DNA from: an uncultured bacterium
Lineage (GTDB): Bacteria; UBA8248; JACPRG01; G963555815
Assembly: GCA_964437725.1 (NCBI GenBank)
Contig: CAYTIB010000114.1
Span: forward strand, 2,695 to 66,694
Direction: 5' to 3'
DNA: 64,000 nt
Shown: in pieces, positions 47,478-64,000 of the stretch
Layout: each line of letters starts with the position of its first letter
How positions within the stretch are numbered: the stretch's first letter is position 1
Notes under the pieces: model-generated
Databases searched by the model: none
What the model saw: the letters and a program-made list of their open reading frames with translations, nothing else
Told to the model about the DNA's origin: nothing
Translations under genes and position numbers: made by a program

Positions 47478-47579
47478 TACATGTTTCCTTTTGCAAAAGT
47501 CGCTATTAACATCTTATAGATGCGGGCCGAAGAGAGAACAAATAGGCTCAAAGATAGGCTATATGAGGAGAGGTGGTCG

Positions 47580-48556: not shown

Positions 48557-48592
48557 CCCTCAGAGTTGCTTTCTTGATTAGGGGTTAGCGAA

Positions 48593-48898: not shown

Positions 48899-48952
48899 CC
48901 CGTTTTATTTATTGCAGATTTCGCAAGTTCCCCATAGACCGTGATATGTAAG

Positions 48953-49966: not shown

Positions 49967-50012
49967 CCTCGCTCCTCAATCTGAACCTTCCTTGGGTTTT
50001 TGAAAATGAGAT

Positions 50013-51062
50013 TTATCCGGAAGAAGATGTCTCACCTCTCAGGTGATCATAGCTAACGACTGTAATGGGTTCTTCTCGTCCCTGGCGTAAAAGTTTTATG
50101 CCTTTATCAGGGGTCGTAATACACCCGATCGGCGTAAGGACTGTTCCGGTTTCCTGAAAAACGCGTGTAGCCAGGTTTTCCGACTCATCCGCTCTAGCGG
50201 TCAGAAGTAACTCGTAATCCTCTCCCCCTTGAAGGGCTAATGTGATTGGATCGCGATTCCATGATTTGGCAACGCTTCGTAGGGCATCTGAAATAGGAAA
50301 CTGCTCACAATGAAGAAGAACTCCGGTGTTGCTAGCCTGGCAAAGGTGTGAAACATCTCCGGAGATACCGTCACTTAAATCGATCATTGCTGTTGCCATC
50401 TTAGATCTTGAAATGGATTGTCCCTCAAGGACGCGGGGAGTTGGTAGGAGAAATGCGTCGACAAGGGGTTTGATGTTGCTAGAAAGGGCCTCGGTTTTCT
50501 CCAGTTTTTTCGGTTCACTATCGTATAAGAGCCGAAAACCTGCCGTTGCATCTCCAAGCGTACCCGTGACCATCAGAACATCACCGGGCTGTGCTCCCGA
50601 TCGGAGAAGGGTAAGGCTTGGATCCGACTCTCCCAACAAATGCACGTCTAAGACCATTGCATTGGCTGAGCGCGAAATATTTCCACCCACAATAGTCGTT
50701 TGGTGTTTCTCACCCTCCTCTCTGAGTCCATCGTAGATACTTTCCAGATATTCTGTTGGCGTTCCCTCGTGAATAGCGATGGAGATTAGCGCATACTTTG
50801 GGTAGCCGCCCATGGCAGCAATGTCGCTGATATTAATGGCCAACGCTTTTTGTCCGAGTTGCTTGGGGGTAGCGTGCTTTTGGAGGAAATGTTCGCCTTC
50901 AACCATCGCATCACTTGTTGCCAACACACAGCGACCCTGGGTGAAGGCTAGCCCCGCACAGTCATCCCCATTTGGGAATATAATCCCTTCGCTAGTCTGT
51001 GGCCCGAGGCGTTTTTTTAAACGGCTTATTAGGCCAAACTCTCCAATGTCTGATAAATGCAC
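50013..51062 (-). CDS. thiL: Thiamine-monophosphate kinase
   Basis: 349 aa. AIR-synthase-related fold with the ThiL N-terminus (IGEFGLISRLKKRL…GDDCA…, …DISD.AAMGG.P…GGN.S…). Confidence 0.8.
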   Translation of the reverse strand: MHLSDIGEFGLISRLKKRLGPQTSEGIIFPNGDDCAGLAFTQGRCVLATSDAMVEGEHFLQKHATPKQLGQKALAINISDIAAMGGYPKYALISIAIHEGTPTEYLESIYDGLREEGEKHQTTIVGGNISRSANAMVLDVHLLGESDPSLTLLRSGAQPGDVLMVTGTLGDATAGFRLLYDSEPKKLEKTEALSSNIKPLVDAFLLPTPRVLEGQSISRSKMATAMIDLSDGISGDVSHLCQASNTGVLLHCEQFPISDALRSVAKSWNRDPITLALQGGEDYELLLTARADESENLATRVFQETGTVLTPIGCITTPDKGIKLLRQGREEPITVVSYDHLRGETSSSG

Positions 51063-51205
51063 GTGCCGAATCTCCTATCGACGAAACAAAATCTTCAACA
51101 TAGGTAGCATAACGCTTGAACATCATCATTGTCTCGTCAACAATGTTCTTTTGAAGAAGGCGTGTATTGTGAAGTGCGAGTGAATTTAGTGAGGAAACTC
51201 GATCT

Positions 51206-52381
51206 TTGATTAGTAAAGACATGCTCCATTTTCAGCAAGAGGCACGAAAATTCCACCGGATCGGACGATGGATAGGCTTGTTGCGAATAGCCCTGGTATT
51301 TCTCTTTCTTGGATTTTTTTTAGTCTCAGGTTTTTCCATGAAATTGGAAGATTGGATACGCAGCATTGTTGTAAACCCTTGGGGGGTGCTAGCTATTTAT
51401 CTTTTTGTATTGCAGTTAGGGATCGAAATACTTAACTTCCCCATGGACTTTCTAAGTGGTTATCGGTTGGCGCATCGTTTCGGTGTTTCCCATCAGGCTT
51501 TTTCAGCCTGGCTAGGGGATCATATTAAGGCATCGACCATACAATTCGCGCTAGTTATTGCAGGTTTTGAAATTTTATATTGGCTGATGCGAGAATCGAG
51601 CCAAACTCTTTTTCCCTGGTGGGCGGGATTGGGGTTTCTTTTGTTTCTCTTGGTTAGCTGTTGGCTGACTCCCGTAATGTTGTTGCCAGCTTTTTTTAGA
51701 GTTCAGCCAGTTCTTGATGGTGGGCTTGAGAAAAAGCTAACGGAGTTGGCGTGTCAATCCGGGACAAAAATTCAGGGAATTTTTCAATATGATCTCAGTC
51801 GAAAAAGTCGAACTGCAAATGCAGCGCTAATCGGGTTAGGTAAAACACGGCGAATATTACTCAGCGATAATCTTTTGAGAGAGTTCACCCAAAGTGAAAT
51901 CTCCGTTGTTCTTGCTCATGAGATTGCTCACCACAAAAAACGTCACATCTTGAAACTTATTTTTATCCAGACGTTGTTGGGTGTAGGAACGTGCTACTTG
52001 GTCTATTTCTTGTTAAGAGTTCTCGGCTCTCCCCTAGGAATCTTACATCCGACGGATCCCTCTGGGTTGCCTCTTTTTCTTGTGATTTTAGTCGTTGGCG
52101 GATTTTTGATTTCCCCACTCGGACACTGGATATCCAGGCGGATGGAACGTGGATGTGATAGTTACGCACTAGAACTGACTCAGGATCCAATTTCATTTTT
52201 GTCTGCTATGCGTAAGCTCTCGCGTTTTAATTTAGCGGAAGAATCTCCATCTCGCTGGGTGGAACTGCTTTTTTATAGTCATCCGCCAATATCCCGGCGC
52301 CTCGAACATGGAGAGCGTTTCAGACGCGAACAACTTGGACTTTCTGTGGAAATGTCTATGCGAGATGACAATTCCAAGTAA
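51206..52381 (+). CDS. M48-family (Ste24/HtpX-like) membrane zinc metalloprotease
   Basis: 391 aa, polytopic, with HExxH (LAHEIAHHKK) and a downstream E in …SRRMERGCD…, plus the C-terminal HPP..RR motif. The start is ambiguous (TTG 51206 or ATG 51221). Confidence 0.8.
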   Translation: MISKDMLHFQQEARKFHRIGRWIGLLRIALVFLFLGFFLVSGFSMKLEDWIRSIVVNPWGVLAIYLFVLQLGIEILNFPMDFLSGYRLAHRFGVSHQAFSAWLGDHIKASTIQFALVIAGFEILYWLMRESSQTLFPWWAGLGFLLFLLVSCWLTPVMLLPAFFRVQPVLDGGLEKKLTELACQSGTKIQGIFQYDLSRKSRTANAALIGLGKTRRILLSDNLLREFTQSEISVVLAHEIAHHKKRHILKLIFIQTLLGVGTCYLVYFLLRVLGSPLGILHPTDPSGLPLFLVILVVGGFLISPLGHWISRRMERGCDSYALELTQDPISFLSAMRKLSRFNLAEESPSRWVELLFYSHPPISRRLEHGERFRREQLGLSVEMSMRDDNSK

Positions 52382-52528
52382 CATGAAAAAGCGCGATATT
52401 GCGCCTCCCGGAATGAACTATTCAACTAATAATTAAGTAAGATTGTTATGATTTCTTGGGTATGGTGAAAGATTATATGTAACTGCCTTCATACTCGTCC
52501 GGGAAATACTGTTTCGGGAGATTTGAAA

Positions 52529-53212
52529 ATGTTCGATAGAAACCATTTTTTGCCCAGACCTCCTGGTCCCCTTTTTGGTCTTTGGTCCTGGAGGTACTTA
52601 AATAAATTCAAGACCTTAAAGTTGGTAAGTAGTAAGAGGGTTAAATCGTTTTATGAAAAATTCAAAAATCTCTATCCACCTGGGTCGAAGTTCCCAACGG
52701 TTGAGCTGAAAACCTCAGATGGACATGTGGTCAAAACCTCAGATTTTCTTGGCAAAAAACATTTCGTTCTTTTTACAGGGGCGATCACTTGACCACCATT
52801 CCGGCGACAGTTGTTGCCTATGGAAGAATTGAAAACGAAATATATGGGAAGAGACGTAGAATTCTTTGCAATGTATGTTCGCGAACCGCATGCTGGCGAA
52901 AATTGGTTTAAACAATTTCGTAATCACGAAAGTTATGAGCATAAACGCGAGGTTGCTGAGGAGTTGGTCCAAATCAAAAATTTGACGATTGCTGTTCTCG
53001 TGGACAGAATTGACGAGAAATACCACGGGTTACTTGGAAATTTGCCGAATTTCTGCTATGTGGTGAACAAACAAGGGTTTGTGGAATACAAGGCGACCTG
53101 GTTACTTGCTGATGCGGTAGATGAGGTTTTAGCGGAGATGGTAACCAGGGACGACCCTACTCAGCCTATCAAAAAAACATTGGACACCTCAGGCGTTGGA
53201 ACGGAAATCTGA
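52529..53212 (+). CDS. Iodothyronine-deiodinase-like thioredoxin-fold selenoprotein (in-frame UGA = Sec at 52790-52792)
   Basis: Track ORFs 52523-52792 and 52811-53212 share a frame, and TGA 52790 is the only stop. Read-through gives …HFVLFTGAIT-U-PPFRRQL…VEFFAMYVREPHAGENW…. This matches the deiodinase active-site signature (FGS.T-U-PPF … F..IYI.EAH..DGW). A SECIS-like hairpin follows. ATG 52529 is preceded by GGGAGA. Confidence 0.85.
52796..52823 (+). promoter_or_regulatory. SECIS-like hairpin for the deiodinase-like selenoprotein
   Basis: Inner 6-bp stem 52803-52808 / 52813-52818 (one G.U) with apical loop AGUU (52809-52812). Outer stem CCAT/ATGG at 52796-52799 / 52820-52823. The loop lies about 17-20 nt after the UGA. 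Confidence 0.6.
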
Positions 53213-53251
53213 TTTATTTAGTAGTTTTTACTGTCTGATATACACGAATTT

Positions 53252-55177
53252 TTATTTTTTGCGGAGTACCCGATTGTCACCGACACGCATAGTGAAACGA
53301 GTCGAGTCAAGATGCTCAAGTAACGGAATCGCATGCTTTCTTGTAATACCGAGCAAGTCCCGGAACCCTGACGCGGAGATCTCATTTTTCTCTTTAAGAA
53401 ATGTTGTCAAAGAATCTTTTATGCTTTCCAGGGTTTCTTGGTGATAAAGCAAGTCGTCCTTTACCCGAATCAAAATTCCTTCGCTGACCAGAACCTGAAT
53501 AATTTCTCGGTCTTTCTTATTTGTAATTCCGAGTTTTTCACAGGCCTCGTCAAGCTTCGGGGGTTGATATCCGGACCCTCGGTATAATTGGTCAATTTCA
53601 TCACGTAGTTTGAGCTGATCAGCGACCAGGCTGACTTCATGGCTTGCAAGTCTCACGATTTCCCCGTCGACCACGACCCCCGTTTTCCCGACTTCTTTCA
53701 AAAGGGTTCCAAAAACCTTTTCTGGCACATTTGGAAGGCGGCTTCGAAGCTCTTCCTTTGGGAGCCCTGGGCGGAGGGGGTTCTCGCGGTGAAAATGGTC
53801 AAGGTAGTCATGGACCGTGGATTGTAATATCCCTAAGGCCTCCTGATGGACTGACCATCCTGACGGACTATCGACCCAGATGACTGTACCTTCCTTTTCG
53901 AAATTAGCCAATATCTCTATCAGGTCTTTACGCCCGGTTGCGGTTCGAGGAAGAAGGTCGCATTGAGGTATCCCACTAGACCCTGCCTCATGTAGGAAGA
54001 GACGCACTCGGGCGGCATCATCGGCTTTGTCCAATGCCTCAAACCGTTTCGAAACTTCCGGTCGCATTCGCCGGTGTTTGGGAGGATGACTATCAAGGAT
54101 TTTTCCTCCACTGATGGTGGTAACGGGTGAGTATGACCGAAGTACATAGCGATCTTCCGGACGAACCACGACCGGTCGCTCCAGGCGAAATTGTGCGTAT
54201 CCAGATTCCCCCGGTTGAAGGCGGTCCGTTCCGATTAATGCTACCCTTCCGATGGCCTCAACGGTCCCCTGATGAAAGCGTATTCGATCCCGATTTTTTA
54301 GAGGTCTCGGTGAATTAGGCAGGTGTTGCAGGGTCGCGTCGACCATATAGGAAGGTGCTAAGCTATCTGGGGCAGCCAGGACATCACCTCGCTCCACAGT
54401 CTCTTTGTCTTGTCCTTGGAGATTGATAGCTGTGCGCTGCCCGGCAGTTGCTTCTTTGACATTTTCCCCGTGTACCTGAAGACCTCGTACTCGGGCAGTG
54501 ATGTTCTTTGGATGGAGTATGACTCGCTCATCTAGGTGGACTCTACCGGAAAACAAAGTTCCTGTTACAACCATACCAAATCCTCGCATTGTAAATACAC
54601 GGTCGATAGGAAGGCGAAAGGGGCTGTCCTCATTCCTAACCCCAACATCAGCTGCCCGTATTGCAAGGGCGGATCTGATAGCATCCACGCCCTCACCCGT
54701 TTGTGAGGAGACCGGGATGATGGGCTTATTCTCTAGAAAAGAGTCACTAAGAAATTCATGTACATCTTCCGTTACCAGCTCCAGCCATTCCTCATCGACC
54801 AGATCCTTTTTCGTCAGCGCCACAATGCCATCTCGAATATCGAGTAGTTGGCAGATTGCAAGATGTTCACGCGTTTGTGGCATTACCCCCTCGTCGGCCG
54901 CTATCACAAACATAACTAGATCGATTCCCCCAGCTCCTGCCAACATATTCCGAACAAAACGTTCGTGACCGGGAACGTCGACTACTCCGGCCCGGACGTT
55001 GCCCGGTAGGTCTAGGGAAGCGAACCCCAGGTCGATCGTAATCCCTCTCTCCTTTTCTTCTTTGAGGCGGTCCGTGTTTACACCCGTCAAAGCTTGCACA
55101 AGTGCAGTTTTTCCATGATCGATGTGACCGGCAGTACCTAGAACGACCTGTTTCAAGGCAATCTCCGTTGGATGCAC
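53252..55177 (-). CDS. selB: Selenocysteine-specific translation elongation factor SelB
   Basis: 641 aa with an EF-Tu-like GTPase ([23 protein letters not shown]) followed by long C-terminal winged-helix domains typical of bacterial SelB. It lies immediately downstream of selA. Confidence 0.9.
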
Positions 55178-55201
55178 CGGCTGGAATGAAGGGGAGAAAT
55201 C

Positions 55202-56629
55202 CTAACGTGCCAGCTCTTCGCTTATAGATTCGAGGGCAGCCAGAATATCATGCTCTTCGTTTTGGAAGACAGTTCGCAAATCTAAGAGAAGCAGATCCTC
55301 TTGAATCCGACCAATAATAGGAGGATCAAAGGAGCGGAGTTGCGCTTCGGTTTTCTTGATATCTATTTTCGATATGGGATCTGGACTTATAGCGATGAGT
55401 GCCGTTGGGATTTCCTCTGTTGGCAGAGTTCCACCGCCTGCGCGAGAGCTCCCCGAGATGACACTAGGTCGGAGTTGCTTTGTGGCACGGGTAGAAAGCT
55501 TGGACAAGAGAGAGACCGCACGGTCCCGGACATCTGCTTCAGTTGTCGATAGAAAAGCGATGCTCGGTATTTTGTCAGTTACAGATTGTGGATCCAAATG
55601 TGCCAAAAGGGTTTCTTCGAGAATTGACAAGGACAGCTTATCAAGACGCAAAGCCCTCATTAGCGGGTGCTCTTTTGCTAGATCTGTACATTTGCGATCT
55701 CCTGCAAAAATACCTGCTTGGGGTCCACCGAGAAGTTTATCACCACTGAAAGTGACGAGGTTGGCTCCCTGCCCGAGAATGTCTGATGGGGTTTTCTCCT
55801 TTATGACTCCCAACTTTTTGAGATTCGTTATGTATCCACTTCCTAAGTTCACCATGAAAGGGATCTTATGCTTTCGGCCAAGCTGTGCAAGATCTCGAAT
55901 GCTGACCTCCTCTGTAAACCCCACGATACGGTAATTGCTAGTGTGAACTTTCAACAAAAGGGCAGTGTTTTCCCCTATGGCGTTTGCGTAGTCCATTAGG
56001 CGGGTTTTGTTGGTAGTACCCACTTCATGAAGAATGGCGCCACTTTGTCGCATTACTTCCGGAATGCGAAATCCTCCTCCAATTTCGACCAGTTCACCCC
56101 GAGAGACTATTACTTCTTTTCCTGTGGCTAAAGCCGCAAGGCAAAGTAGGACGGCTCCAGCATTATTATTTACAGCCCCAGCGGATTCTGCTCCGGTTAG
56201 TCGTTGCACTAGCTGCTCAATGGCGGAATCCCGTTGGCCTCTTTTGCCATTTTCTAGATCGAACTCCAGGTTGGAATAGCCTCCGGCGACTTCTGTAGCT
56301 CGCTTCAAGATATCGGTTCCTAAAGGGGCCCTCCCGAGATTTGTATGGAGGACTACACCGCTTGCGTTTACCACTTTCCGAAGTTTTGGCGTCAGAGTTT
56401 CCTGGAGCCGGACCAGTGCTTCGTTTGCGATCTTTTCCGGAGACATATCGATCTCTGATGTGTCTTGAGCTTCGAGAATTGTTTTTCGGTGGTGGGCTAG
56501 TGTTTCGCGCACGCAGTCAGTTGCAGTTTTTTCCGGAAGATCATGGATAGGTTTCTTACGTAGAACTTGAAGTACTTCATCAACAGAGGGTAGTTCCTGG
56601 AGCTCTTTTTGTGTTCCTTTTTTTTTCAT
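55202..56629 (-). CDS. selA: L-seryl-tRNA(Sec) selenium transferase SelA
   Basis: 475 aa with SelA blocks (…VVNASGVVLHTNLGRAPL…, NNNAGAVLL, the PLP-Lys region FSGDKLLGGPQAG). ATG is followed by an A9 run. Confidence 0.9.
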   Translation of the reverse strand: MKKKGTQKELQELPSVDEVLQVLRKKPIHDLPEKTATDCVRETLAHHRKTILEAQDTSEIDMSPEKIANEALVRLQETLTPKLRKVVNASGVVLHTNLGRAPLGTDILKRATEVAGGYSNLEFDLENGKRGQRDSAIEQLVQRLTGAESAGAVNNNAGAVLLCLAALATGKEVIVSRGELVEIGGGFRIPEVMRQSGAILHEVGTTNKTRLMDYANAIGENTALLLKVHTSNYRIVGFTEEVSIRDLAQLGRKHKIPFMVNLGSGYITNLKKLGVIKEKTPSDILGQGANLVTFSGDKLLGGPQAGIFAGDRKCTDLAKEHPLMRALRLDKLSLSILEETLLAHLDPQSVTDKIPSIAFLSTTEADVRDRAVSLLSKLSTRATKQLRPSVISGSSRAGGGTLPTEEIPTALIAISPDPISKIDIKKTEAQLRSFDPPIIGRIQEDLLLLDLRTVFQNEEHDILAALESISEELAR

Positions 56630-56789
56630 TCAGATCCGTCCAAAATAGATGTCTAAGCCGGGTGCGAATTCTCTTACCAAAAACCATGAAAATCAGAAGC
56701 CCTGTTTGATTTTCCTGTGGGGGTTCTAAACCTTATGAATTTATTTTCCGCGGTGCTCAAGGGAAATTGTTTGTTCTCGTTTGAGTTAG

Positions 56790-58304
56790 TCACCTTCTAG
56801 GCCGATCCGTCGCAGGTTCTCGGTTGTCTCGCCGACTTATCCAGATGGAAGCGCCTGCAAGAATAGCCAGCCAGACCCAGCCCAAAGTAACTACCGCTGA
56901 CCATGGATAACCTCCGTAGGGTTTTTTTAGATCCTCGGACAAATTGAGCCCGATAATTAAAGCTAGGATAACTGGTACCAGGACCATTACACCGAAATCC
57001 CAACGGCGAGTCAGTTGAATGTTTTTGTCTTGGTTTAGATGATCCCGCACATACCGCGGCTTAAGAATATAGCCGACGAGAACAGCTTCTAAAATGCCAA
57101 CTACAACAAGTCCGTAGTTTGTAATGAACCGATCTACAATGTCCAACCAGAACAGGCCGCCCCCCGTTGTAAAGACCAAACTCAGCAGAAATCCAATGCT
57201 GCAGAGCATTGACACGGCACGACGGCGATTCATGTGGAATTTGTCCAAGAGTGCTGCTACAAATGCCTCGGTCAGCGAAATAGCTGAGCTCAGCCCCGCA
57301 AGGGCCAAGGCCAGGAAGAAGATCGCTCCAAAAAGAGGACGCAAAGCGGGAAGTTTGTTGATTGCCTCAGGGTAAGCAACAAAAGCTAATCCTACACTTT
57401 GTTTTACAACTTCGCCTACAGGTTTCCCAACCACGGCGGACATGTAGCCTAAGGTGGCGAAGATAGCAAATCCTGCAAATATCGCAAATAAGCTGTCCCC
57501 CAATCCAATTGCAAAGGAAGAGCGTCCGACCGGCTTATTTTTTGGGAGATAACTTGCGAAAGCAATCATGATGCCAAATCCGAGACTCATGCTAAAGAAG
57601 ATTTGTGCGTAAGCATCAATCCAGACTTTTGGACGTTTTAAGGCAGCAAAATCGGGGGTTAGGTACGCCCGGATTCCGGAACCGGCTCCTTCCAAAGTCA
57701 GACTCCAGAATACAAGGATTGCGATAAGTATGATCAGGACAGGCATGAATATTTTGTTGGCCAACTCTACCCCTCGACGCACTTCGCGTGAGGTGATTGC
57801 CCAGGTTGCTCCCCAAACTACAACAGTTCCGATAAGAATAGGCCAACGGAAACCACCCAATTCAGATGGTCCTGATGTTTGTCCAAGAAACTCCTGGCTG
57901 AAGAATGTTCCTGGATTCGGTCCCCAGCCTAAACTGAAGGCATACACAAAGTAATCAACAGTCCAGCCGATAACAACGCAGTAGTAGGGATTCACACCGA
58001 ACATTCCAATGAACAGTGCCCACCATCCCACCCATTCCCAACCTTTACCTGCTTTAGCAAGGGCCAGGGGTGCGCTTTTTCGGGTTCGGTGCCCTAGACC
58101 AAATTCAAGAAGTAACAGGGGAATGCCAACAGTGATCAAGGCAACCGCATAGGGGATTAAAAATGCGCCCCCGCCGTTGTTGTACGCCGTATAAGGGAAG
58201 CGCCAAATGTTTCCCAAACCTACTGCGGATCCCATAGCAGCCAGTATGAAACCCGAGCGGCTTCCCCAAGTATCACGGTTTGGCGGCTCGCTGAACTCTG
58301 GCAC
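56790..58304 (-). CDS. Neurotransmitter:sodium symporter (NSS/SNF) family transporter
   Basis: 504 aa, about 12 TM, with the N-terminal signature W.SR.GFILAA.GSAVGLGNIWRFPY. Confidence 0.9.
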   Translation of the reverse strand: MPEFSEPPNRDTWGSRSGFILAAMGSAVGLGNIWRFPYTAYNNGGGAFLIPYAVALITVGIPLLLLEFGLGHRTRKSAPLALAKAGKGWEWVGWWALFIGMFGVNPYYCVVIGWTVDYFVYAFSLGWGPNPGTFFSQEFLGQTSGPSELGGFRWPILIGTVVVWGATWAITSREVRRGVELANKIFMPVLIILIAILVFWSLTLEGAGSGIRAYLTPDFAALKRPKVWIDAYAQIFFSMSLGFGIMIAFASYLPKNKPVGRSSFAIGLGDSLFAIFAGFAIFATLGYMSAVVGKPVGEVVKQSVGLAFVAYPEAINKLPALRPLFGAIFFLALALAGLSSAISLTEAFVAALLDKFHMNRRRAVSMLCSIGFLLSLVFTTGGGLFWLDIVDRFITNYGLVVVGILEAVLVGYILKPRYVRDHLNQDKNIQLTRRWDFGVMVLVPVILALIIGLNLSEDLKKPYGGYPWSAVVTLGWVWLAILAGASIWISRRDNREPATDRPRR

Positions 58305-58607
58305 GGAGTTTCTCCTTCCTGTGGAGGAAATGGTGGTAATTTTATCATGATTTGTGGGGCATCTCGGGAGGGTTTTAACCTTTCATGCCGACATCTTGTA
58401 ATTTCTGCTCGGAACCCGCCCTGGTTGCAAGTGATAATGTGCTTATGAAATTGAGATATTTTTAATATTGGTTCTTTTGCATCTTCACTTCTGCGCTAGC
58501 CAAGAATGGGTACACAGAGGGTTCCGGTAAAGTCGTGAAGAAATGATATCCTGAGAACTCACTCCTTGTCGTGTGTTTCACTGGTGATAGCTGTAATCTA
58601 TTAAAAT

Positions 58608-59846
58608 TTAATCAGTAAATGTTTTATATGCAAACATCGTCAGTATTTGAGTAGCCTTAAGTAGTTGGTCTACAGAAATGCGTTCATTAGCCGTATGCGC
58701 CTCCGAGAAGTCCCCTGGGCCGAATACGACGGCCGGGATCCCGGCAGGAGGGAAGAGACGTGCATCTGTTCCAGCAACGTATCCCTGAGGTTTCTGCTTT
58801 GACCCGAGAATCTCAGAGGCGGAATTGAGAAGACGTTGAACATGTGGATTCTGGGGGTCTGTTTCAAAGTGGGGCATGCTCATCAATATTTCGACTTGCG
58901 CGTTAATTTCTAGGTCTTCAATCCGTAATTCGTTAATTATGGAGACAATCTCGTCCCGGATGGCCTCCGGCGTTTCGTCGGGGAGCATTCTTCGGTCCAT
59001 GATCATTTCGCAGTGGTCTGGGACCATATTTGGCTTTACGCCACCTTGGATGATCGCTACGTTTGCAACAGGGGAAGGTAGATAGGGATGACTTCGACGT
59101 TTTAAAGCGGGAAGGTAGTGTTTGTGAATTGCATTGATTATTAGACTCATTTTGTGAATCGAGTTAATTCCAGCATGATCAGCGATGCTACTGTGGGCTG
59201 ACTCCCCTTGAACGGTGATTTTGAAATGTGCTCCTCCCCTGTGTGCAATTACAATTCCGCACTCTGTTTGTTCACCGACAACGGCAAAATCGACATCATC
59301 CAGTAAGCCGGAATCGATAGCATGCTGTGTGCCAGCGGGATCGGCAGTTTCCTCGCAGGATGCAAAACACAAAACCAGATTTCCCCGCCACTCGTTTTTT
59401 CTTGCGGCTAGAATCTCGGCTACGCTTAACATCACCGCGATATCATTTTTGACGTCACAAGCCCCACGACCGTACACATAACCATTTTCTAGTGAACCGC
59501 CGAAGGGATCCTTTGTCCAATTCGCTGGATCACCAGGAGGAACTGTGTCGATGTGAGCGTGAAAACAGAGTGTAATGCCTGGCCCCTTCTTTCCACTTAG
59601 TCTACCTATAAAGTTTGGGCTCTCCTGACGTTGAGTTACCTCCATCACCTCAAAGCCCATGGCACGCATTCGGCGTGCACAATACTCTCCCATTTTCCGC
59701 TCAGAACCCGTGGGGCTTGGAATCCGAATGGTTTCTCTAAGAGTATTAACGAGAGAATCGACTTTAACCTCGTTGAGCCACACTTGAGCAGTATTCATAA
59801 CTTCGCCAATAGGGTTTTGGTAGGTTCGGAATTTATTGTCTTCCAT
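58608..59846 (-). CDS. M20-family metallopeptidase (ArgE/DapE/ACY1-like deacylase)
   Basis: 412 aa with HIDTVP, GRGACDVK, CEETA and a C-terminal H ligand region. Its first 19 nt lie inside the left 21-bp direct repeat. Confidence 0.8.
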   Translation of the reverse strand: MEDNKFRTYQNPIGEVMNTAQVWLNEVKVDSLVNTLRETIRIPSPTGSERKMGEYCARRMRAMGFEVMEVTQRQESPNFIGRLSGKKGPGITLCFHAHIDTVPPGDPANWTKDPFGGSLENGYVYGRGACDVKNDIAVMLSVAEILAARKNEWRGNLVLCFASCEETADPAGTQHAIDSGLLDDVDFAVVGEQTECGIVIAHRGGAHFKITVQGESAHSSIADHAGINSIHKMSLIINAIHKHYLPALKRRSHPYLPSPVANVAIIQGGVKPNMVPDHCEMIMDRRMLPDETPEAIRDEIVSIINELRIEDLEINAQVEILMSMPHFETDPQNPHVQRLLNSASEILGSKQKPQGYVAGTDARLFPPAGIPAVVFGPGDFSEAHTANERISVDQLLKATQILTMFAYKTFTD

Positions 59847-59848
59847 TA
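59828..59848. repeat. 21-bp perfect direct repeat, left copy (GGAATTTATTGTCTTCCATTA)
   Basis: Identical 21-mer to 62887-62907. It covers the ATG and the first codons (MEDNKF) of the M20 peptidase gene on the minus strand. Confidence 0.95.
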
Positions 59849-60301
59849 AGATGCATACTTCCTTACCCCCTTATATTACAGGGATTGACAGAGAAGGTAC
59901 AGGATCTACCTACACATCCATCCACCCACACCACGGAAAGAACCCCCTTGCTTCGCACCTATTTTGCTAGCTTTCAAAGCGTTTCCTGCGCCGTAGTAAT
60001 CTGCATATCTGGTGAATGTGTTCTTTACCATGGGCTCCTCCCTCAAGACTTCCGGAATTATTCTCTCGAAGAAAGTGAAAGGGGCCTACCTTGACATTCG
60101 TGAGACCGAAGGCCATATACAGCGCGATGTTTCTCGCGATCGCACGACATGCTTCCGGGCAATCGTAAGCACCCTATCCCGAGATAATTCTGAAAATTCC
60201 CGTCTCATCCAGGTGCGTGTGGAAAGAGGCGAAACGCCATGACGCGTCCGCTCGCCCTACTGGGCGCGCGGACGTTGTGACCCACTGAGGACTTCCATTT
60301 C

Positions 60302-61546
60302 ATGACCCACCGCTCCTTCATCGATCTCGGCGTGGCCGCGCCCCTTCGGCGTGCCCTGAAAACCGAGAACTATATCAACCCCACGCCGATCCAGGTACGA
60401 GCGATCCCGCTGCTTCTCGCCGAGAAAGACTTGATCGGCATTGCCCAGACCGGTACCGGCAAGACCGCGGCCTTCGCACTGCCGATCCTGCAGCAGCTCT
60501 CCGAGAGGCGCGAACGTGCCGTCCCCTGTGTTGCCCGTGCCCTCATTCTGTCGCCGACGCGCGAACTGGCACTCCAGATTGGAGACAGCTTAAAAACCTA
60601 CGGGCGACATCTTGGGCTTCGTCAGGCCGTCATAATGGGCGGTGTCGGGCAACATTCTCAGGTTCGGGCGCTTGCCCGCAGGGTCGACATCCTAATCGCC
60701 ACCCCAGGACGTTTGCTCGACCTGCTTAGTCAGGGCCACGTCCGACTCAACAAGGTGTCCTTTCTCGTTTTGGATGAAGCCGATCGCATGTTGGACATGG
60801 GCTTCATCCCGGATGTGCGAAAGATCATCGGAGCCCTGCCGAAGCAGCGTCAGTCGATGCTGTTTTCGGCGACGATGCCCCCGGATGTTGTGCATCTGGC
60901 CCGCGAGATCCTCCGTGAACCCGTTCGCGTCGAGGTCTCGCCGAAAACCGTGACCGTGGAACGGATCGACCAGAGAGTCTTCTTCGTCGGGAAAGGCAAC
61001 AAGCGCGCCCTGTTGGCCAGGTTGTTGTTGGACCCAGCGTTGGCCCGAGTCCTCGTCTTTACGCGCACCAAGCGCGGCGCCAACCGGGTGGCTGAGCAGC
61101 TCAGCAGAGCAGGCGTTGCGACTGAGGCGCTCCACGGCAACAAGTCCCAGAACGCTCGCCAGCTTGCCCTGAAGAAGTTCCGAACGGGTCGCTCGCGGGT
61201 CCTCGTCGCCACGGATGTTGCTTCGCGGGGGATCGACGTGGAGGACGTGACCCACGTTATCAACTACGAAGTTCCGGACCTGCCGGAGAGCTACGTCCAC
61301 CGTGTCGGCCGGACAGCCCGAGCAGGCGCTGAGGGCATCGCGCTCTCCTTCTGCGATCCGACTGAGCGCGCCTACCTCCGCAATATCGAGAGGCTGACGA
61401 AGCGCCCCATCGCCGTTGTCGAGAGTCGGCCGATTGATAACGAGAGCGGGTCCCCCCCGCGAGCCACGCCCTCGAGGCCGGCTCTGTCCGCTGCACCTAG
61501 ACGCCGCCGGCGCTCCCGAGGCGTTCAAGCGCGCCGAGCGGTGTGA
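60302..61546 (+). CDS. rhlE: DEAD-box ATP-dependent RNA helicase (RhlE-like)
   Basis: 414 aa with a Q-motif region, AQTGTGKT, PTRELA, DEAD, SAT, HRVGRTARAG and an Arg-rich C-terminal tail. Conspicuously GC-rich. Confidence 0.9.
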   Translation: MTHRSFIDLGVAAPLRRALKTENYINPTPIQVRAIPLLLAEKDLIGIAQTGTGKTAAFALPILQQLSERRERAVPCVARALILSPTRELALQIGDSLKTYGRHLGLRQAVIMGGVGQHSQVRALARRVDILIATPGRLLDLLSQGHVRLNKVSFLVLDEADRMLDMGFIPDVRKIIGALPKQRQSMLFSATMPPDVVHLAREILREPVRVEVSPKTVTVERIDQRVFFVGKGNKRALLARLLLDPALARVLVFTRTKRGANRVAEQLSRAGVATEALHGNKSQNARQLALKKFRTGRSRVLVATDVASRGIDVEDVTHVINYEVPDLPESYVHRVGRTARAGAEGIALSFCDPTERAYLRNIERLTKRPIAVVESRPIDNESGSPPRATPSRPALSAAPRRRRRSRGVQARRAV

Positions 61547-61571
61547 CCTGCCGGATTAGAGAGAGGTTTTC

Positions 61572-62660
61572 TTGACGGAACGAAAGATCGGATTTCCTGC
61601 CCGGGGCGAGTTCAACAGAACCGTGAGAAAGCGCGTGGAGCAGTATTTCACAGAGCACGGTTTTGCCAAGACGGGAAATTGGCGCATGCCGTTAAAAACG
61701 GCAATCATTCTACCATTGCTGCCGGCCTTTTATGTCCTCTTGGTGTTCTTTTCCTCATCGCCTCTCATGGCCGCGATCATAGCTTTCTGTATTGCGCAGG
61801 GGCTCGTGCTCATCGCTTTCAACATCATGCACGACAGCAACCACGGAAGCTATTCGAAAAGCGGCAAAATCAATCGCGTGTTGAGCTTCTCGATGGAGAT
61901 GATCGGAGGCAGCCATCTTCTGTGGCGGCAGAAGCACAACGTCCTGCATCACACCTACACCAATATCAATGAGATGGACAGTGACCTCCACACAGGCGGC
62001 CTGCTCCGTTTAAGCCCGGAGCAGGATTGGAGACCCTGGCATCGCCTTCAACACCTGTATGCTTTCCCGATCTACACCCTGTTGTCGCTGTCGTGGGTCA
62101 CCTACTCCGATTTCAGTAAGCTCTTTTCCGGCCGCATCGGACAATATCGGTTGCGCAAGGCGTCTCCTTCGGAAATGACCACGTTCTTTCTGGGCAAGGC
62201 TTCTTACTTCGGCTACACTCTCGTTCTGCCGCTCCTGTTCCATCCGGTCTTACACGTACTAATCGCATTTGTGGGAATCCATCTGCTGATGGGGTTTACG
62301 CTTTCCATCACCTTTCAACTGGCGCATACCTTGGAAGGGGCGACTTTTCCTAGGCCGGACACGGACACCGGCAGCATCGAAAACGAATGGGCCATTCATC
62401 AGGTCGAAACCACCGCAAACTTCGCACCGAAGAACAAGGTGGCCGTTTGGTATCTGGGAGGGTTGAATTACCAAATCGAGCACCATCTCTTTTCAGAAAT
62501 ATGCCATATTCATTACCCGGCAATCAGCGGAATCGTGAAGCAGACCTGCCGGGATTATTCCATCGACTATGTTAGCTATCCGACGCTCCGCTCCGCCATC
62601 GGCGCCCACTACCGATTTCTCAAAACACTCGGAAAAAGCCCCGCCCTTGTGCATCCTTAG
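61572..62660 (+). CDS. Membrane fatty-acid desaturase, front-end (DesD/delta-6-like) type without cytochrome b5 domain
   Basis: 362 aa with three His boxes, HDSNHG, HNVLHH and QIEHHLF. The Q in box 3 is typical of front-end desaturases. TTG start 26 nt after the helicase stop. Confidence 0.85.
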   Translation: MTERKIGFPARGEFNRTVRKRVEQYFTEHGFAKTGNWRMPLKTAIILPLLPAFYVLLVFFSSSPLMAAIIAFCIAQGLVLIAFNIMHDSNHGSYSKSGKINRVLSFSMEMIGGSHLLWRQKHNVLHHTYTNINEMDSDLHTGGLLRLSPEQDWRPWHRLQHLYAFPIYTLLSLSWVTYSDFSKLFSGRIGQYRLRKASPSEMTTFFLGKASYFGYTLVLPLLFHPVLHVLIAFVGIHLLMGFTLSITFQLAHTLEGATFPRPDTDTGSIENEWAIHQVETTANFAPKNKVAVWYLGGLNYQIEHHLFSEICHIHYPAISGIVKQTCRDYSIDYVSYPTLRSAIGAHYRFLKTLGKSPALVHP

Positions 62661-62886
62661 GGTATGGAAAAATGTAAAGGGATTCGCACTCCTGAATCTC
62701 TTCCAAAGTTCCTCATGGAAGTCAGGTAGATAACCCACACATTTACCCACACCCACCAGATACAAAACCGTCATATGACGTTTCTGGACGCTTTGGGGCA
62801 AAACCTAGCTAACTGCTCGATTGGGTATGGGGATACGGGGGATAAAGCCAGTGTTAGCAGGGTCTGACAGATACTCCGCAAAAGGG

Positions 62887-62907
62887 GGAATTTATTGTCT
62901 TCCATTA
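62887..62907. repeat. 21-bp perfect direct repeat, right copy (GGAATTTATTGTCTTCCATTA)
   Basis: Identical to 59828-59848. Here it is intergenic. On the minus strand it would start only a 44-codon ORF (MEDNKFPLLRS…). Confidence 0.95.
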
Positions 62908-63116
62908 TGACCTAATGGCATCGCCCTGTCTTTTGAGGTTGTAAACTTCCTTACTGTTCTCAAAGTTCATGGGCTGTTGACAGTCGATTCTGCCTGCTTC
63001 AAAAGCATATGGCTTGACGGCTTTATTTCAGCATGGTGAGATTGCCTATTCTACCTTCCGGGTAGATTTTACTTGAGTTTGCTAGCATTGAACTCTCACA
63101 GGTTGTCGAAAAGAAT

Positions 63117-64000
63117 ATGACTCGACGTATAGTTGGAATTCTCGGAATTGTGCTGCCGCTGTTTCTGCTATTACTGAATCCCCCACTAAAACTTCCTCCG
63201 CATGGTCTTAAGATTCTTGCCATGGTCATATTTGCGATTTGTTTTTTTGTTTCAGAGATTATTCCGCTCAGTGTAACCGGATTGTTGCTTCTCCTCTTTT
63301 TTACTCTGTCCGGCGTAGTCTCGCCAAGTGTGGCGTTCTCCGGGTTTACAACGCCTGCCCTTTGGTTGGTGTTCGCTGCCTATCTATTAGGAGGGGGAAT
63401 GCTTCAAACTGGGCTTGCTCGAAGAATGGCTTTTGCCATCGTGCGTGTGTTTGGCAATCGGTTTGATCGAATTGTCCAAGGATTTTGTTTAATTGGATTT
63501 ATCTTGAACTTTCTCATTCCTTCTGGAAACGCCCGTGTCGCCTTGCTCATTCCCATAGCACTGGAAATCCAGGATGCTTTTGGTCTAAAGCTCAAGTCTA
63601 GAGGTTCTGCTGCTCTGATTCTTGCAACGACTCTCTCTGCTTTTTTCCCGGGGTTTGCCCTGCTTACTGCGAACGTGCCGAATTTAGTGCACATTGGAGT
63701 CATTGAGTCAGTTGGAGGCCTAAACATTTCTTACGGCCTGTGGGCTTATTTACATCTTCCGGTCCTTGGCATTGCGCGGTTGGTGTTGATTTATGGGGTA
63801 GTTCGAATTTTTATCTGGCCCAAATCGCTACCTACTCTTCAGAGTGATTTTCTGTCTGGTTATAGCACTGATCGGCTAACTCTAAATGAGAAAAAGATGA
63901 TTGTTTTTCTTGTTATTGCGGTTGGACTTTGGGCGACAGATTTCTTGCACGGCGTCAAACCGGCTTGGGTTGGTTTATCGATTGCTCTAGTTGCTATGCT
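63117..64000 (+). CDS. DASS/SLC13-type (ArsB/NhaD permease superfamily) anion transporter, C-terminus beyond the window
   Basis: The frame is open from ATG 63117 to the window end, so it is absent from the ORF track because there is no stop. Hand translation gives MTRRIVGILGIVLPLFLLLL…LKILAMVIFAICFFVSEIIPLSVTGLL…PSGNARVALLIPIA…, typical of DASS-family permeases. Confidence 0.65.
   Translation, partial: MTRRIVGILGIVLPLFLLLLNPPLKLPPHGLKILAMVIFAICFFVSEIIPLSVTGLLLLLFFTLSGVVSPSVAFSGFTTPALWLVFAAYLLGGGMLQTGLARRMAFAIVRVFGNRFDRIVQGFCLIGFILNFLIPSGNARVALLIPIALEIQDAFGLKLKSRGSAALILATTLSAFFPGFALLTANVPNLVHIGVIESVGGLNISYGLWAYLHLPVLGIARLVLIYGVVRIFIWPKSLPTLQSDFLSGYSTDRLTLNEKKMIVFLVIAVGLWATDFLHGVKPAWVGLSIALVAM

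What the first reader, a model, noticed from the sequence alone, without database searches (positions are those of the whole stretch)
59828..62907. 3,059-bp GC-rich helicase+desaturase unit flanked by perfect 21-bp direct repeats, one overlapping a start codon
**Seen in the sequence**
- The 21-mer GGAATTTATTGTCTTCCATTA occurs twice in direct orientation, at 59828-59848 and 62887-62907, 3,059 bp apart. The flanks on either side of the copies show no further similarity.
- The left copy contains the ATG and the first six codons of the M20 peptidase gene on the minus strand. The right copy is intergenic.
- Between the copies lie about 450 bp of non-coding DNA, a DEAD-box helicase whose GC content is conspicuously higher than the rest of the window (sampled lines about 58-77% against about 35-48%), and a desaturase at intermediate GC. 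Composition returns to background after about 62660.
- By my estimate the chance expectation of any exact 21-nt direct repeat in 64 kb is of order 10^-3 or lower (about 2x10^9 position pairs against 4^21).

**Established knowledge**
- Direct repeats bracketing compositionally foreign DNA are the signature of site-specific integration (attL/attR) or of excisable, circularisable elements.
- DEAD-box helicases and membrane desaturases are both classic cold-acclimation functions.

**Inference**
- This may be a small acquired cold-adaptation cassette that lacks its own integrase and is mobilised in trans.
- Alternatively it may be a de Bruijn-graph assembly artefact. 21 is a common assembler k-mer length, so a foreign circular or repeat path sharing one 21-mer could be spliced in.
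Basis: partly seen in the sequence, partly recalled or inferred. Interest (0 to 1): 0.8.

Follow-up and report, generated by a model that had tools for sequence, protein, structure and literature searches.

The report
Foreign helicase–desaturase islet with duplicated target
A 3-kb piece of GC-rich foreign DNA carrying an RNA helicase and a membrane lipid desaturase really did insert just upstream of a peptidase gene in this Nitrospinota-like genome, duplicating a 21-bp target sequence. It is a genuine but fairly ordinary small genomic islet, not an assembly error.

Summary
The 21-mer is present exactly as described. It extends to 23 of 24 bases and is absent from shuffled sequence.

**It is not an assembly artefact.**
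- An independent JGI assembly (L007, 95.7% identical) is colinear across both junctions and carries diverged repeat copies.
- A third assembly (L057) confirms the left junction.

**A relative shows the empty site.** L013 is about 90% identical. Its DASS and M20 genes are adjacent, and one exact copy of the 21-mer sits where the window has the 3,038-bp insert (59849-62886).

**The cargo is foreign.**
- It is a RhlE-like DEAD-box helicase plus a fatty-acid desaturase in one operon.
- GC3 is 0.75 and 0.68, against 0.46±0.04 for the window's other genes.
- The window copy is drifting toward AT: 42 GC→AT changes against 2 AT→GC.
- Both genes are under purifying selection.
- The same pair occurs at 84-94% identity in unrelated, mostly GC-richer Nitrospinota/Tectomicrobia contexts.

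**The boundaries do not look active.**
- Only 60015-62712 is shared with those other contexts.
- The roughly 170-bp end segments match nothing I could search and evolve about neutrally, as do the repeat copies.
- There is no integrase or transposase in the insert or in the 64-kb window, and there are no terminal inverted repeats.

**Best reading:** a fossil, att-flanked islet without its own integrase (CIME-like). Current mobility in trans is unsupported. The left repeat lies in the M20 leader, not in its conserved coding sequence.

The parts
59828..59848 (+). Left copy of the 21-bp direct repeat (attL-like junction). It lies in the M20 leader, 30-50 bp upstream of the conserved M20 start codon.
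   Evidence: Exact match. The single copy in empty-site relative L013 is identical. L007 has a 1-nt variant, GGAATCTATTGTCTTCCATTA.
62887..62907 (+). Right copy of the 21-bp direct repeat (attR-like junction). It adjoins the native M20/DASS divergent intergenic region.
   Evidence: Exact match. It is followed by TGA, as in the empty site. L007 has a 2-nt variant, GAAATTTATTGTCTTTCATTA.
59849..62886 (+). The 3,038-bp insert, absent from the empty-site relative.
   Evidence: BLAST of the window against L013 aligns 58554-59851 and 62887-64000. The two alignments overlap by 24 bp in L013, and nothing lies between them.
59849..60014 (.). Left end segment 'a' (166 bp, GC about 47%). Origin unknown, non-coding, evolving about neutrally.
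   Evidence: No DNA or translated match in L001, L008, L009, L010, L013, L055 or the rest of the window. An exact 19-nt probe from it found nothing in viral contigs. BLAST of the whole insert against plasmids matched only the helicase. It is 88.6% identical to L007, against 97-98% for the genes.
60015..60301 (+). Helicase upstream region and leader, transferred together with the gene. It contains a conserved TTGACA (60091-60096), a 17-nt spacer and CATATA, which may be a promoter.
   Evidence: Shared at 90-95% with L007, L008 and L001. No Rfam family matches. The predicted fold is not exceptional, z = -1.5. The promoter is inferred from the sequence only.
60302..61546 (+). RhlE-like DEAD-box RNA helicase, 414 aa, GC 63.5%, GC3 0.75.
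   Evidence: Pfam DEAD (9e-51) and Helicase_C (8e-30). Motifs I, Ia, DEAD, SAT, V and VI are intact. The best NCBIfam hits are RhlE2 and RhlE, both below their equivalog cutoffs. dN/dS is 0.11-0.20.
61572..62660 (+). Membrane fatty-acid desaturase, 362 aa, starting 25 bp after the helicase stop (an operon). GC3 is 0.675.
   Evidence: Pfam FA_desaturase, 3e-30. Histidine boxes HDSNH, HNVLHH and QIEHH are present. Homologs of 360-362 aa cover 98-100% of it. dN/dS is 0.08-0.10.
62661..62712 (+). 3' tail of the transferred unit. Homology to every other context stops at 62710-62715.
   Evidence: BLAST end points against L008, L001-L006 and L055. L008, L001 and L055 continue to match one another for about 44 bp more, and the window does not.
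62713..62886 (.). Right end segment 'f' (174 bp, GC about 48%). Origin unknown. It holds two of the three ACCCACAC motifs that it shares with segment 'a'.
   Evidence: No match in any held locus or in the rest of the window. An exact 24-nt probe found nothing in viral contigs. It is 92% identical to L007, which also has a 12-bp deletion here. For the motif and the weak direct similarity to 'a', 3 of 1000 shuffles reach the observed score.
58608..59798 (-). M20 (ArgE/DapE-family) peptidase gene, the host gene whose leader was the target. The ORF can be extended to 59846 only in the insertion-bearing lineage.
   Evidence: Pfam and NCBIfam hits. All seven orthologs outside the insertion-bearing lineage (P0122-P0128) lack the MEDNKF extension, and five of them begin at or within one residue of Met17. 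The uORF in L013 is fused to M20 by a 1-bp insertion in the window.
62904..62932 (-). Promoter-like site (AAGACA, 17 nt, CATAAT). This may be the ancestral M20 promoter, now separated from M20 by the insert. Its -10 element overlaps the edge of the right repeat.
   Evidence: Consensus scan. The number of sites found does not exceed what shuffles give, so this is inference only.
63117..64000 (+). DASS/SLC13-type permease (5' part). It is the divergent neighbour of M20 in the empty site.
   Evidence: Pfam Na_sulph_symp and CitMHS. It is adjacent to M20 in L013 with a 257-bp spacer.

Best explanation
**What it is**
- The locus is a real, fixed, laterally acquired 3,038-bp islet (59849-62886) in a roughly 47%-GC Nitrospinota/Tectomicrobia-like genome.
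- Its cargo is a self-contained operon: about 250 bp of upstream leader, a RhlE-like DEAD-box RNA helicase, and a membrane acyl-lipid/acyl-CoA desaturase.
- The operon comes from GC-richer relatives and was kept because it is useful. The likely benefit is RNA remodelling plus membrane fluidity, for example at low temperature. That function is inferred, not tested.

**How it got there**
- The islet entered the leader of the M20 peptidase gene, between M20 and the divergently transcribed DASS permease gene.
- The 21-bp repeat is the single-copy target sequence, now present on both sides of the insert.
- The most likely mechanism is conservative site-specific recombination. A circular intermediate carrying the same 21-bp core would have recombined with the chromosome, catalysed by a recombinase encoded elsewhere or since lost.
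- What remains is an integrase-less, att-flanked remnant, CIME-like.

**Its state now**
- It is a fossil. The repeats and the roughly 170-bp arms drift neutrally.
- The insertion predates the split between the window and L007 lineages and post-dates the split from the empty-site lineage.

**Shown versus inferred**
- Shown: the insertion itself, the target duplication, the foreign origin, selection on the cargo, and decay of the borders.
- Inferred: the recombinase-mediated mechanism and the physiological role.
For: **Real, not chimeric**
- L007 (JGI) is colinear with window 59238-64000 at 95.7% and carries diverged repeat copies.
- L057 (ENA) matches 58462-61066 at 99.7-100%.

**Empty site**
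- L013 aligns to 48589-59851 and to 62887-64000 at about 90%. It has one exact 21-mer followed by TGA and a 257-bp M20-DASS spacer.
- The look-up grouped two further contigs with L013 as similar places not shown, meaning mostly the same neighbouring genes. I did not inspect them.

**Foreign origin**
- GC3 is 0.75 and 0.675 against 0.460±0.036 for 42 ORFs.
- The helicase is 90% identical in protein and DNA to one in 64%-GC Nitrospinota contigs (L001-L006). The M20 ortholog from the same metagenomes (L010-L012, also 64% GC) is only 67% identical.
- The helicase-desaturase pair also occurs in a 66%-GC Tectomicrobia MAG, L055, at 83-84% nt identity.
- The pair also sits next to an unrelated UbiD paralog in L008 at 93%.

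**Residence in the low-GC host**
- Derived changes are 42 GC→AT against 2 AT→GC.
- dS between the window and L007 is similar for cargo (0.07-0.09) and flank (0.06).

**Selection**
- dN/dS is 0.08-0.20, and the catalytic motifs are intact.

**Timing**
- The cargo's dS against L008 is 0.20-0.22, less than the host M20 dS against the empty-site relative, 0.36.

**No autonomous machinery**
- The insert has only two real ORFs.
- No integrase or transposase family appears among the non-overlapping ORFs of at least 150 aa in the window.
- There are no terminal inverted repeats.

**Why an att-type origin is favoured**
- A 21-bp exact duplication is far longer than DDE-transposon target duplications and falls in the range of att cores (established knowledge).
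- The two arms share a direct CA-rich motif: ACCCACAC occurs three times there and only twice elsewhere in the window. This could be relic arm-type binding sites.
Against: - I found no cognate integrase, no second element at this site, and no circular junction.
- The 21-mer scans of metagenome and genome collections returned only unrelated gut Firmicutes.
- The DNA shared with other contexts ends about 170 bp inside the repeats. The three contexts have three different boundaries, so there is no recurrent element with fixed ends.
- No 21-mer-like sequence lies next to the unit in L001, L008 or L055.
- The 21-mer has no convincing internal dyad symmetry of the kind expected for a core site. It has only GGAA/TTCC, plus a 5-bp dyad that lies partly outside it. 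I read this from the sequence.
- The arm motif is low-complexity and was chosen after the fact.
- The more distant relative L009 has two other, non-mobile-looking genes between DASS and M20. Ordinary gene flux at this spot is therefore possible.
- The cold-adaptation role rests on knowledge of the gene families only.
Confidence: 0.55

Rival explanations
1. The 21 bp are a true target-site duplication. Staggered cuts 21 bp apart were filled in after a linear fragment (a + unit + f) was inserted. The agent would be an unidentified transposase- or casposase-like enzyme, or end-joining repair.
For: The duplication is exact and ends abruptly on both sides. No 21-mer-like sequence accompanies the unit in the other contexts. 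No integrase is present. The orphan arms could simply be donor-context DNA carried along.
Against: There are no terminal inverted repeats and no transposase. By established knowledge, 21 bp exceeds the target duplications known for bacterial DDE transposons (2-14 bp) and casposons (about 14-15 bp). Only one insertion is known, so target variability cannot be assessed.
Confidence: 0.2
2. Two-step origin. A small element of about 340 bp (a+f) first inserted and created the 21-bp repeats. The helicase-desaturase unit later landed between a and f by illegitimate recombination. On this reading the repeats have nothing to do with the cargo.
For: Both arms have host-like GC and similar length (166 and 174 bp). 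They share a weak direct CA-rich repeat. The unit's homology to other contexts ends sharply at 60015 and 62712.
Against: No copy of a, f or a+f was found anywhere else in the window, the held loci, viral contigs or plasmids. I saw no intermediate state, and a+f has no terminal inverted repeats.
Confidence: 0.1
3. The cassette is still mobile. It would be excised and integrated in trans by a host- or element-encoded recombinase acting on the 21-bp repeats.
For: It has att-like direct repeats and no recombinase of its own. The helicase(-desaturase) unit appears in at least four genomic contexts at 84-97% identity.
Against: The repeats and arms are the least conserved parts between the window and L007, and the L007 copies differ at 3 of 21 positions. 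Other contexts share only the inner 2.7 kb and lack both the repeats and the arms. The site does not resemble a dif site; I judged that by eye.
Confidence: 0.08
4. De Bruijn-graph assembly artefact, in which a foreign path sharing one 21-mer was spliced in.
For: The repeat is exactly 21 nt, a common assembler k. The insert has a strong GC contrast.
Against: An independent assembly 4.3% diverged from the window (L007) has the same structure, and its repeat copies do not match each other. A third assembly (L057) confirms the left junction. Substitutions in the insert are biased toward the host's composition, and dS is similar in insert and flank.
Confidence: 0.02
5. The occupied state is ancestral, and the 'empty' L013 site arose by precise deletion between the two 21-bp repeats.
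For: Recombination between direct repeats would regenerate exactly the single-copy site seen in L013.
Against: The cargo's dS against its nearest non-syntenic copy (0.20-0.22) is smaller than the host's dS against L013 (0.36). The cargo is still far from host composition. This reading would also leave the origin of the repeats unexplained.
Confidence: 0.05

Closest known systems
CIME (cis-mobilizable element): the decayed remnant of an integrative element that keeps attL and attR but has lost its integrase and transfer genes (definition in PMC5704250)
   Same: It is flanked by direct repeats identical to the single-copy target in an empty site. It has no recombination or transfer genes, it carries adaptive cargo, and it sits at the end of a host gene.
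   Different: No parent ICE or IME, and no cognate integrase, is known for this site. The element is only 3 kb. The repeats and arms are decaying. The cargo found in other genomes lacks the att-like ends. The target is a 5' leader rather than the usual 3' end of a tRNA or protein gene.
SXT/R391-type integration into the 5' end of prfC (17-bp attP/attB core; recalled from the literature, not tested here)
   Same: Insertion at the 5' end or leader of a host gene, with a core duplication of about 20 bp. The element supplies new upstream sequence to the target gene.
   Different: SXT is a roughly 100-kb ICE with its own tyrosine integrase and conjugation genes. Neither is present here.
Pseudo-SCC elements of staphylococci (ccr-less cassettes flanked by direct repeats at rlmH; recalled from knowledge)
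   Same: Small cargo cassettes without their own recombinase, bounded by direct repeats of 15-20 bp at a specific chromosomal site.
   Different: A different phylum and a different target. The known trans-acting Ccr recombinases have no counterpart identified here.
Cold-shock DEAD-box helicases (CsdA/RhlE/CshA) and cold-induced membrane desaturases (Bacillus Des, cyanobacterial Des enzymes)
   Same: The same protein families, with intact catalytic motifs. A functional link between a DEAD-box helicase and membrane fatty-acid composition in the cold has been shown for S. aureus CshA (PMC7392221).
   Different: Here the two genes form one laterally transferred operon. I tested neither expression nor phenotype. 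The helicase scores below the RhlE equivalog cutoffs.

Membership tests
att-flanked integrative element remnant (CIME) | Direct repeats at both ends that equal a single-copy sequence at the unoccupied site | tested here: met
   L013 has one exact 21-mer at the M20/DASS junction. The window has two copies bracketing 3,038 bp.
att-flanked integrative element remnant (CIME) | No integrase or transfer genes inside the element | tested here: met
   Only the helicase and the desaturase are coding. The arms have no translated similarity to any held locus and no conserved ORF: L007's 55-aa call has no counterpart of at least 50 aa in the window.
att-flanked integrative element remnant (CIME) | Descent from, or mobilisation by, an integrase-encoding element that uses the same att site | tested here: inconclusive
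   No such element was found. L009 has two unrelated genes at this locus. The 21-mer scans returned only unrelated Firmicutes. The window holds no recombinase.
att-flanked integrative element remnant (CIME) | Excision to a circle, leaving an empty site, within a population | not testable with these tools
   This needs reads or PCR. The junction to look for is ...CCGCAAAAGGG-GGAATTTATTGTCTTCCATTA-AGATGCATACTTCC...
DDE transposon / IS-bounded unit | Terminal inverted repeats and a transposase gene | tested here: not met
   The inverted alignment of the two ends is at chance level; 134 of 1000 shuffles score as well. There is no transposase in the insert or the window.
Integron gene cassette | An attC recombination site at the cassette end and an integron integrase/attI platform nearby | tested here: not met
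   There is no integrase in 64 kb. The unit carries its own upstream region and two genes. I saw no imperfect-palindrome attC at the boundaries on inspection, but I did not run a dedicated attC model.
IMEX (integrates at dif using the host's XerCD) | The target is the chromosomal 28-bp dif site, with XerC and XerD arms around a 6-bp spacer | tested here: inconclusive
   The site lies in a promoter/leader region. It shows only a 5-bp dyad, CATTA-N5-TAATG, partly outside the repeat. It has no resemblance to proteobacterial or Firmicute dif consensus sequences as I recall them. The dif sequence of this phylum is not known to me.
De Bruijn assembly chimera | The structure is absent from independent assemblies, and the junction repeat equals the assembler's k | tested here: not met
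   L007 and L057 reproduce the junctions. The L007 repeat copies differ from each other at 3 of 21 positions.
DEAD-box RNA helicase (RhlE-like) | DEAD and Helicase_C domains with motifs I, Ia, II (DEAD), III (SAT), V and VI | tested here: met
   Pfam hits at 9e-51 and 8e-30, and the motifs were located. Assignment to the RhlE subfamily rests on best hit only, at 487 and 435 bits against cutoffs of 925 and 743.
Membrane fatty-acid desaturase (PF00487) | Three histidine boxes and hydrophobic membrane segments | tested here: met
   HDSNH at residue 87, HNVLHH at 122 and QIEHH at 301, with hydrophobic stretches at 39-89 and 213-252. The Pfam hit is 3e-30. Regiospecificity was not determined.

The most novel reading that the evidence does not exclude
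The helicase-desaturase operon may be the cargo of a new kind of minimal, recombinase-less integrative cassette in Nitrospinota. On this reading a roughly 3-kb circle carries a 21-bp core plus arms of about 170 bp with ACCCACAC-type binding sites. A chromosomally encoded recombinase would insert and excise it at gene leaders. That would explain how the same operon appears in several unrelated contexts at 84-97% identity without any visible mobility gene.
Probability: 0.08. Interest if true: 0.7.

Novelty: new member of a known kind. Interest (0 to 1): 0.35.

Why it matters
- It is a clean, well-bounded example of recent gene transfer in the poorly studied Nitrospinota/Tectomicrobia group: occupied site, empty site, and donor-like copies are all available.
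- It shows an RNA helicase plus lipid desaturase operon moving between lineages of very different GC content (64-66% to 47%) and being kept under selection while it drifts toward the new host's composition.
- It is a candidate marker for niche adaptation, possibly to temperature, and a useful case for timing that compositional drift.
- The mechanism that produced the 21-bp duplication is unresolved, and resolving it would be of modest interest to mobile-element specialists.
- As a genome feature it is an ordinary small genomic islet.

Tried and rejected
1. Exact-protein look-ups of the three window ORFs found nothing on record. Context had to come from homologs instead.
2. A genome-contig scan with the M20 protein found no relatives.
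3. Scans of metagenome contigs and genome contigs for the exact 21-mer returned 41 loci. All are about 33%-GC gut Firmicutes (Holdemanella and others) apart from one unrelated 56%-GC contig, and none has any similarity to the window.
4. Exact probes from arms a and f found nothing in viral contigs. BLAST of the whole insert against plasmids gave only 60-80% helicase hits on alphaproteobacterial megaplasmids.
5. Sensitive blastn and tblastx of a, f and the reconstructed f-21mer-a junction against all held loci and the rest of the window found nothing.
6. Repeat searches around the unit in L001, L008 and L009 found no flanking direct repeats there. A fuzzy search allowing up to 5 mismatches found no 21-mer near the unit in other contexts.
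7. Rfam found no family in 59500-63300. The helicase leader's fold is unexceptional, z = -1.5.
8. Partial matches to the 21-mer sit at the two inner breakpoints: 13/21 direct at 60013, and 10/12 inverted at 62713. I rejected them as evidence because matches of at least 13/21 occur about 70 times in the window.
9. UbiD neighbours in L001, L008 and L010 looked like possible shared context. They are 30-38% paralogs, so the contexts are unrelated.
10. A literature search for the sample and assembly accessions gave nothing useful.
11. I considered integron cassette, IMEX/dif and DDE transposon readings and did not adopt them (see the membership tests).

Full report
**1. The observation**

The 21-mer GGAATTTATTGTCTTCCATTA occurs exactly twice in the window, at 59828-59848 and 62887-62907 on the + strand. 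None of 100 dinucleotide-preserving shuffles contains it, even with up to three mismatches allowed. The match extends to 24 nt with one mismatch (…ATTA-A-GA against …ATTA-T-GA). Local alignment of the flanks finds nothing more.

- SelA, an SNF-family transporter and an M20 peptidase on the minus strand.
- 453 bp without a credible ORF.
- A DEAD-box helicase at 60302-61546 (+).
- A fatty-acid desaturase at 61572-62660 (+), starting 25 bp after the helicase stop.
- A DASS/SLC13 permease from 63117 (+).

GC is 59-66% across the helicase, against 45-52% in every other 2-kb bin of the window.

**2. Not an assembly artefact**

The helicase has close relatives in other public assemblies.
- L007 is a JGI metagenome contig. 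It is colinear with window 59238-64000 at 95.7% identity, running from M20 through the insert into the DASS gene.
- Its left repeat copy is GGAATCTATTGTCTTCCATTA and its right copy is GAAATTTATTGTCTTTCATTA. The two copies differ at three positions, so no shared 21-mer could have caused a mis-join there.
- L057 is an ENA scaffold from another sample. It matches 58462-61066 at 99.7-100%, apart from a run of N, and confirms the left junction.

That the repeat is exactly 21 nt long is a coincidence.

**3. The empty site**

The 98%-identity cluster of M20 proteins includes a Logan contig, L013, in which the DASS gene and M20 are directly adjacent and divergent, 257 bp apart.
- At the DNA level, L013 aligns at about 90% to window 48589-58434, to 58554-59851 and to 62887-64000.
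- The last two alignments overlap by 24 bp in L013.
- That overlap is a single, exact copy of the 21-mer followed by TGA, as at the window's right copy.

The window therefore carries a 3,038-bp insertion (59849-62886) with a 21-bp duplication of the target. The look-up grouped two further contigs with L013 as similar places not shown, meaning mostly the same neighbouring genes. I did not inspect them.

**4. Where exactly the target lies**

All seven M20 orthologs outside the insertion-bearing lineage (P0122-P0128) lack the MEDNKF extension. Five of them begin at or within one residue of Met17 of the window's longest ORF, whose ATG is at 59798.

In L013 the upstream ATG inside the 21-mer opens an out-of-frame 16-codon uORF, whose stop overlaps the M20 start. 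In the window, L007 and L057, a 1-bp insertion fuses it in frame with M20.

The repeat therefore lies in the M20 leader, not in conserved coding sequence. A weak promoter-like site (AAGACA, 17 nt, CATAAT, on the minus strand at 62932-62904) overlaps the outer edge of the right copy. If it is real, the insert has separated M20 from its old promoter. This is inference only, because the scan found no more sites than shuffles give.

**5. The cargo is foreign, resident and functional**

*Composition.* GC3 is 0.75 for the helicase and 0.675 for the desaturase. The 42 other ORFs of at least 200 aa average 0.460±0.036. Both genes are strong outliers. The desaturase's lower total GC reflects its membrane-protein amino-acid composition.

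*Copies in other contexts.*
- L008 matches window 60015-62710 at 93%, next to a UbiD-family gene.
- L001-L006 match the helicase unit (60052-61551) at 90% and the last 170 bp (62543-62712) at 90.6%. These are 64%-GC contigs, one of them labelled Nitrospinota. In them the desaturase has been deleted down to its last 118 bp.
- L055 is a 66%-GC Tectomicrobia MAG. It has the helicase-desaturase pair at 83-84%, followed by tRNA-Leu.
- The UbiD neighbours in L001, L008 and L010 are only 30-38% identical to one another, so the contexts are unrelated.

*Host genes are far more diverged.* The M20 ortholog in 64%-GC contigs from the same three metagenomes as L001-L003 is only 67% identical in protein. 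The helicase there is 90% identical.

*Direction of change.*
- Taking sites where L008 and L055 agree as ancestral, the window copy shows 42 GC→AT changes against 2 AT→GC.
- L007 shows the same bias.
- The copy in the GC-rich host (L001), polarised against the window and L008, shows the opposite, 47 AT→GC against 23 GC→AT.
- The insert has therefore been evolving inside a low-GC genome.

*Timing.* Between the window and L007, dS is 0.07-0.09 for the cargo and 0.06 for the flanking DASS gene. That fits co-inheritance since before their split. The cargo's dS against L008 (0.20-0.22) is smaller than the host M20 dS against the empty-site relative (0.36). That fits acquisition after the split from the empty-site lineage.

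*Selection and function.*
- dN/dS is 0.08-0.20.
- All helicase motifs and the three histidine boxes are intact.
- The helicase is RhlE-like by best hit but scores below the equivalog cutoffs. Its best structural relative by sequence is CshA.
- About 250 bp upstream of the helicase travels with it in every context. This stretch contains a conserved TTGACA, a 17-nt spacer and CATATA.
- It matches no Rfam family and is not unusually structured.

**6. Anatomy of the insert and what it says about mechanism**

Only 60015-62712 is shared with other contexts. The three contexts have three different boundaries. L008, L001 and L055 continue to match one another for about 44 bp beyond 62712, and the window does not.

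The outer segments are a (59849-60014) and f (62713-62886).
- Both have host-like GC.
- Neither has a DNA or translated match anywhere I could search.
- Neither has terminal inverted repeats.
- They are the least conserved parts of the locus between the window and L007: 88.6%, and 92% plus a 12-bp deletion. Genes are at 97-98% and the native intergenic region at 96%.
- Each repeat copy in L007 has also picked up changes.
- The arms share a weak direct CA-rich similarity. ACCCACAC occurs three times in them and only twice elsewhere in the window, and 3 of 1000 shuffles reach the alignment score.

No integrase, transposase or other recombinase family appears among the non-overlapping ORFs of at least 150 aa in the window.

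A chance 21-bp identity between a foreign circle and the chromosome is implausible. Either the element already carried the sequence, as an att core, or the duplication was made at insertion, as a true target-site duplication.
- By established knowledge, 21 bp is typical of att cores and much longer than bacterial transposon target duplications. I therefore favour site-specific integration by a recombinase encoded elsewhere, followed by decay.
- That matches the published definition of a CIME (PMC5704250).
- I could not show this. A staggered-cut duplication and a two-step origin, with a small a+f element first, both remain open.

**7. Comparison with what is known, and novelty**

The locus behaves like a small genomic islet or CIME. 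Its position at the 5' end of a gene recalls SXT at prfC, and pseudo-SCC cassettes are another recombinase-less analogue; both comparisons are from memory. It fails the tests for a DDE transposon, an integron cassette and an assembly chimera. The dif/IMEX test is inconclusive and unlikely.

The cargo families are classic cold-acclimation functions. A helicase-to-membrane-lipid link has been shown experimentally for S. aureus CshA (PMC7392221). Nothing here tests temperature.

I rate it a new member of a known kind.

**8. Verdict**

| Point | Result |
|---|---|
| Observation | Confirmed |
| Assembly artefact | Refuted |
| Acquired cassette with duplicated target | Confirmed by an empty site |
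| Currently mobilised in trans | Unsupported; the borders look like a fossil |
| Interest | Moderate to low, 0.35 |

The residual novel possibility is a recombinase-less minimal integrative cassette system in Nitrospinota. I give it about 8%.

Noticed in passing
window 15384-17470 (-): Four tandem paralogous cytidine/dCMP-deaminase-domain genes (160-191 aa) with a period of about 520 bp. They appear as direct-repeat families D1-D3.
   Followed up: partly
window 50013-59798: A selenium-related neighbourhood: a SelD-like AIRS protein (50013-51062), SelB (53252-55177) and SelA (55202-56629). The nearby M20 hydrolase hits the 'YgeY selenium metabolism-linked hydrolase' model below its cutoff (194 bits against 321). 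M20 stays close to SelA/SelB in L009, L010 and L013.
   Followed up: partly
window 59796-59846 (-); L013 9952-10003: In the empty-site relative, a 16-codon uORF (MEDNKFRNNKTLLVEL) ends at a TGA that overlaps the M20 start codon. In the window, L007 and L057, a 1-bp insertion fuses it in frame and gives M20 a 16-residue N-terminal extension. Whether the uORF is translated is unknown.
   Followed up: partly
L001-L006 (e.g. L001 5216-5228): In the 64%-GC Nitrospinota contigs the desaturase has been deleted, leaving 11 bp between the helicase stop and the last 118 bp of the desaturase. The helicase is annotated there as a 672-aa protein with a spurious Pyr_redox_2 hit, which looks like an over-extended ORF in GC-rich DNA.
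   Followed up: partly
window 59924, 62733, 62745 (+): ACCCACAC(C) occurs three times in the two orphan arms of the insert and only twice elsewhere in 64 kb. One copy falls within a 12-bp deletion in L007. These could be relic protein-binding sites or just low-complexity sequence.
   Followed up: partly
window 60013-60033 and 62713-62724: Partial matches to the 21-mer sit exactly at the two inner breakpoints of the insert: 13/21 direct, and 10/12 inverted (TCATGGAAGTCA against TAATGGAAGACA). Matches of this quality are common in the window (about 70 at 13/21 or better), so I did not count them as evidence.
   Followed up: yes
L014-L054: The exact 21-mer also occurs once each in dozens of roughly 33%-GC human-gut Firmicutes contigs (Holdemanella, Eubacterium). 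They are unrelated to this locus. It is a reminder that 21-mers recur by chance across very large collections.
   Followed up: yes
L009 6768-10001: In a more distant relative (M20 79% identical), two different genes sit between DASS and M20: a 233-aa hypothetical protein and a 548-aa pentapeptide-repeat protein. The SNF transporter gene is also absent from between M20 and SelA. This intergenic spot therefore varies in gene content.
   Followed up: partly
L055 1990-2076 (-): In the Tectomicrobia MAG, the helicase-desaturase pair is followed 177 bp downstream by tRNA-Leu(CAG), a classic integration hotspot. I did not examine that locus for repeats.
   Followed up: no
window 46806-48257 (+): Two tandem paralogous ORFs (223 and 245 aa, repeat family D4 at 77% over 71 nt) with no Pfam match.
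   Followed up: no
window 26694-27227 (-): A 177-aa protein with an N-terminal cold-shock domain. This is longer than the usual CspA of about 70 aa.
   Followed up: no
L007 1064-2197: The L007 helicase has a 40-nt deletion near its 3' end. This truncates the basic C-terminal tail, giving 377 aa against 414.
   Followed up: partly
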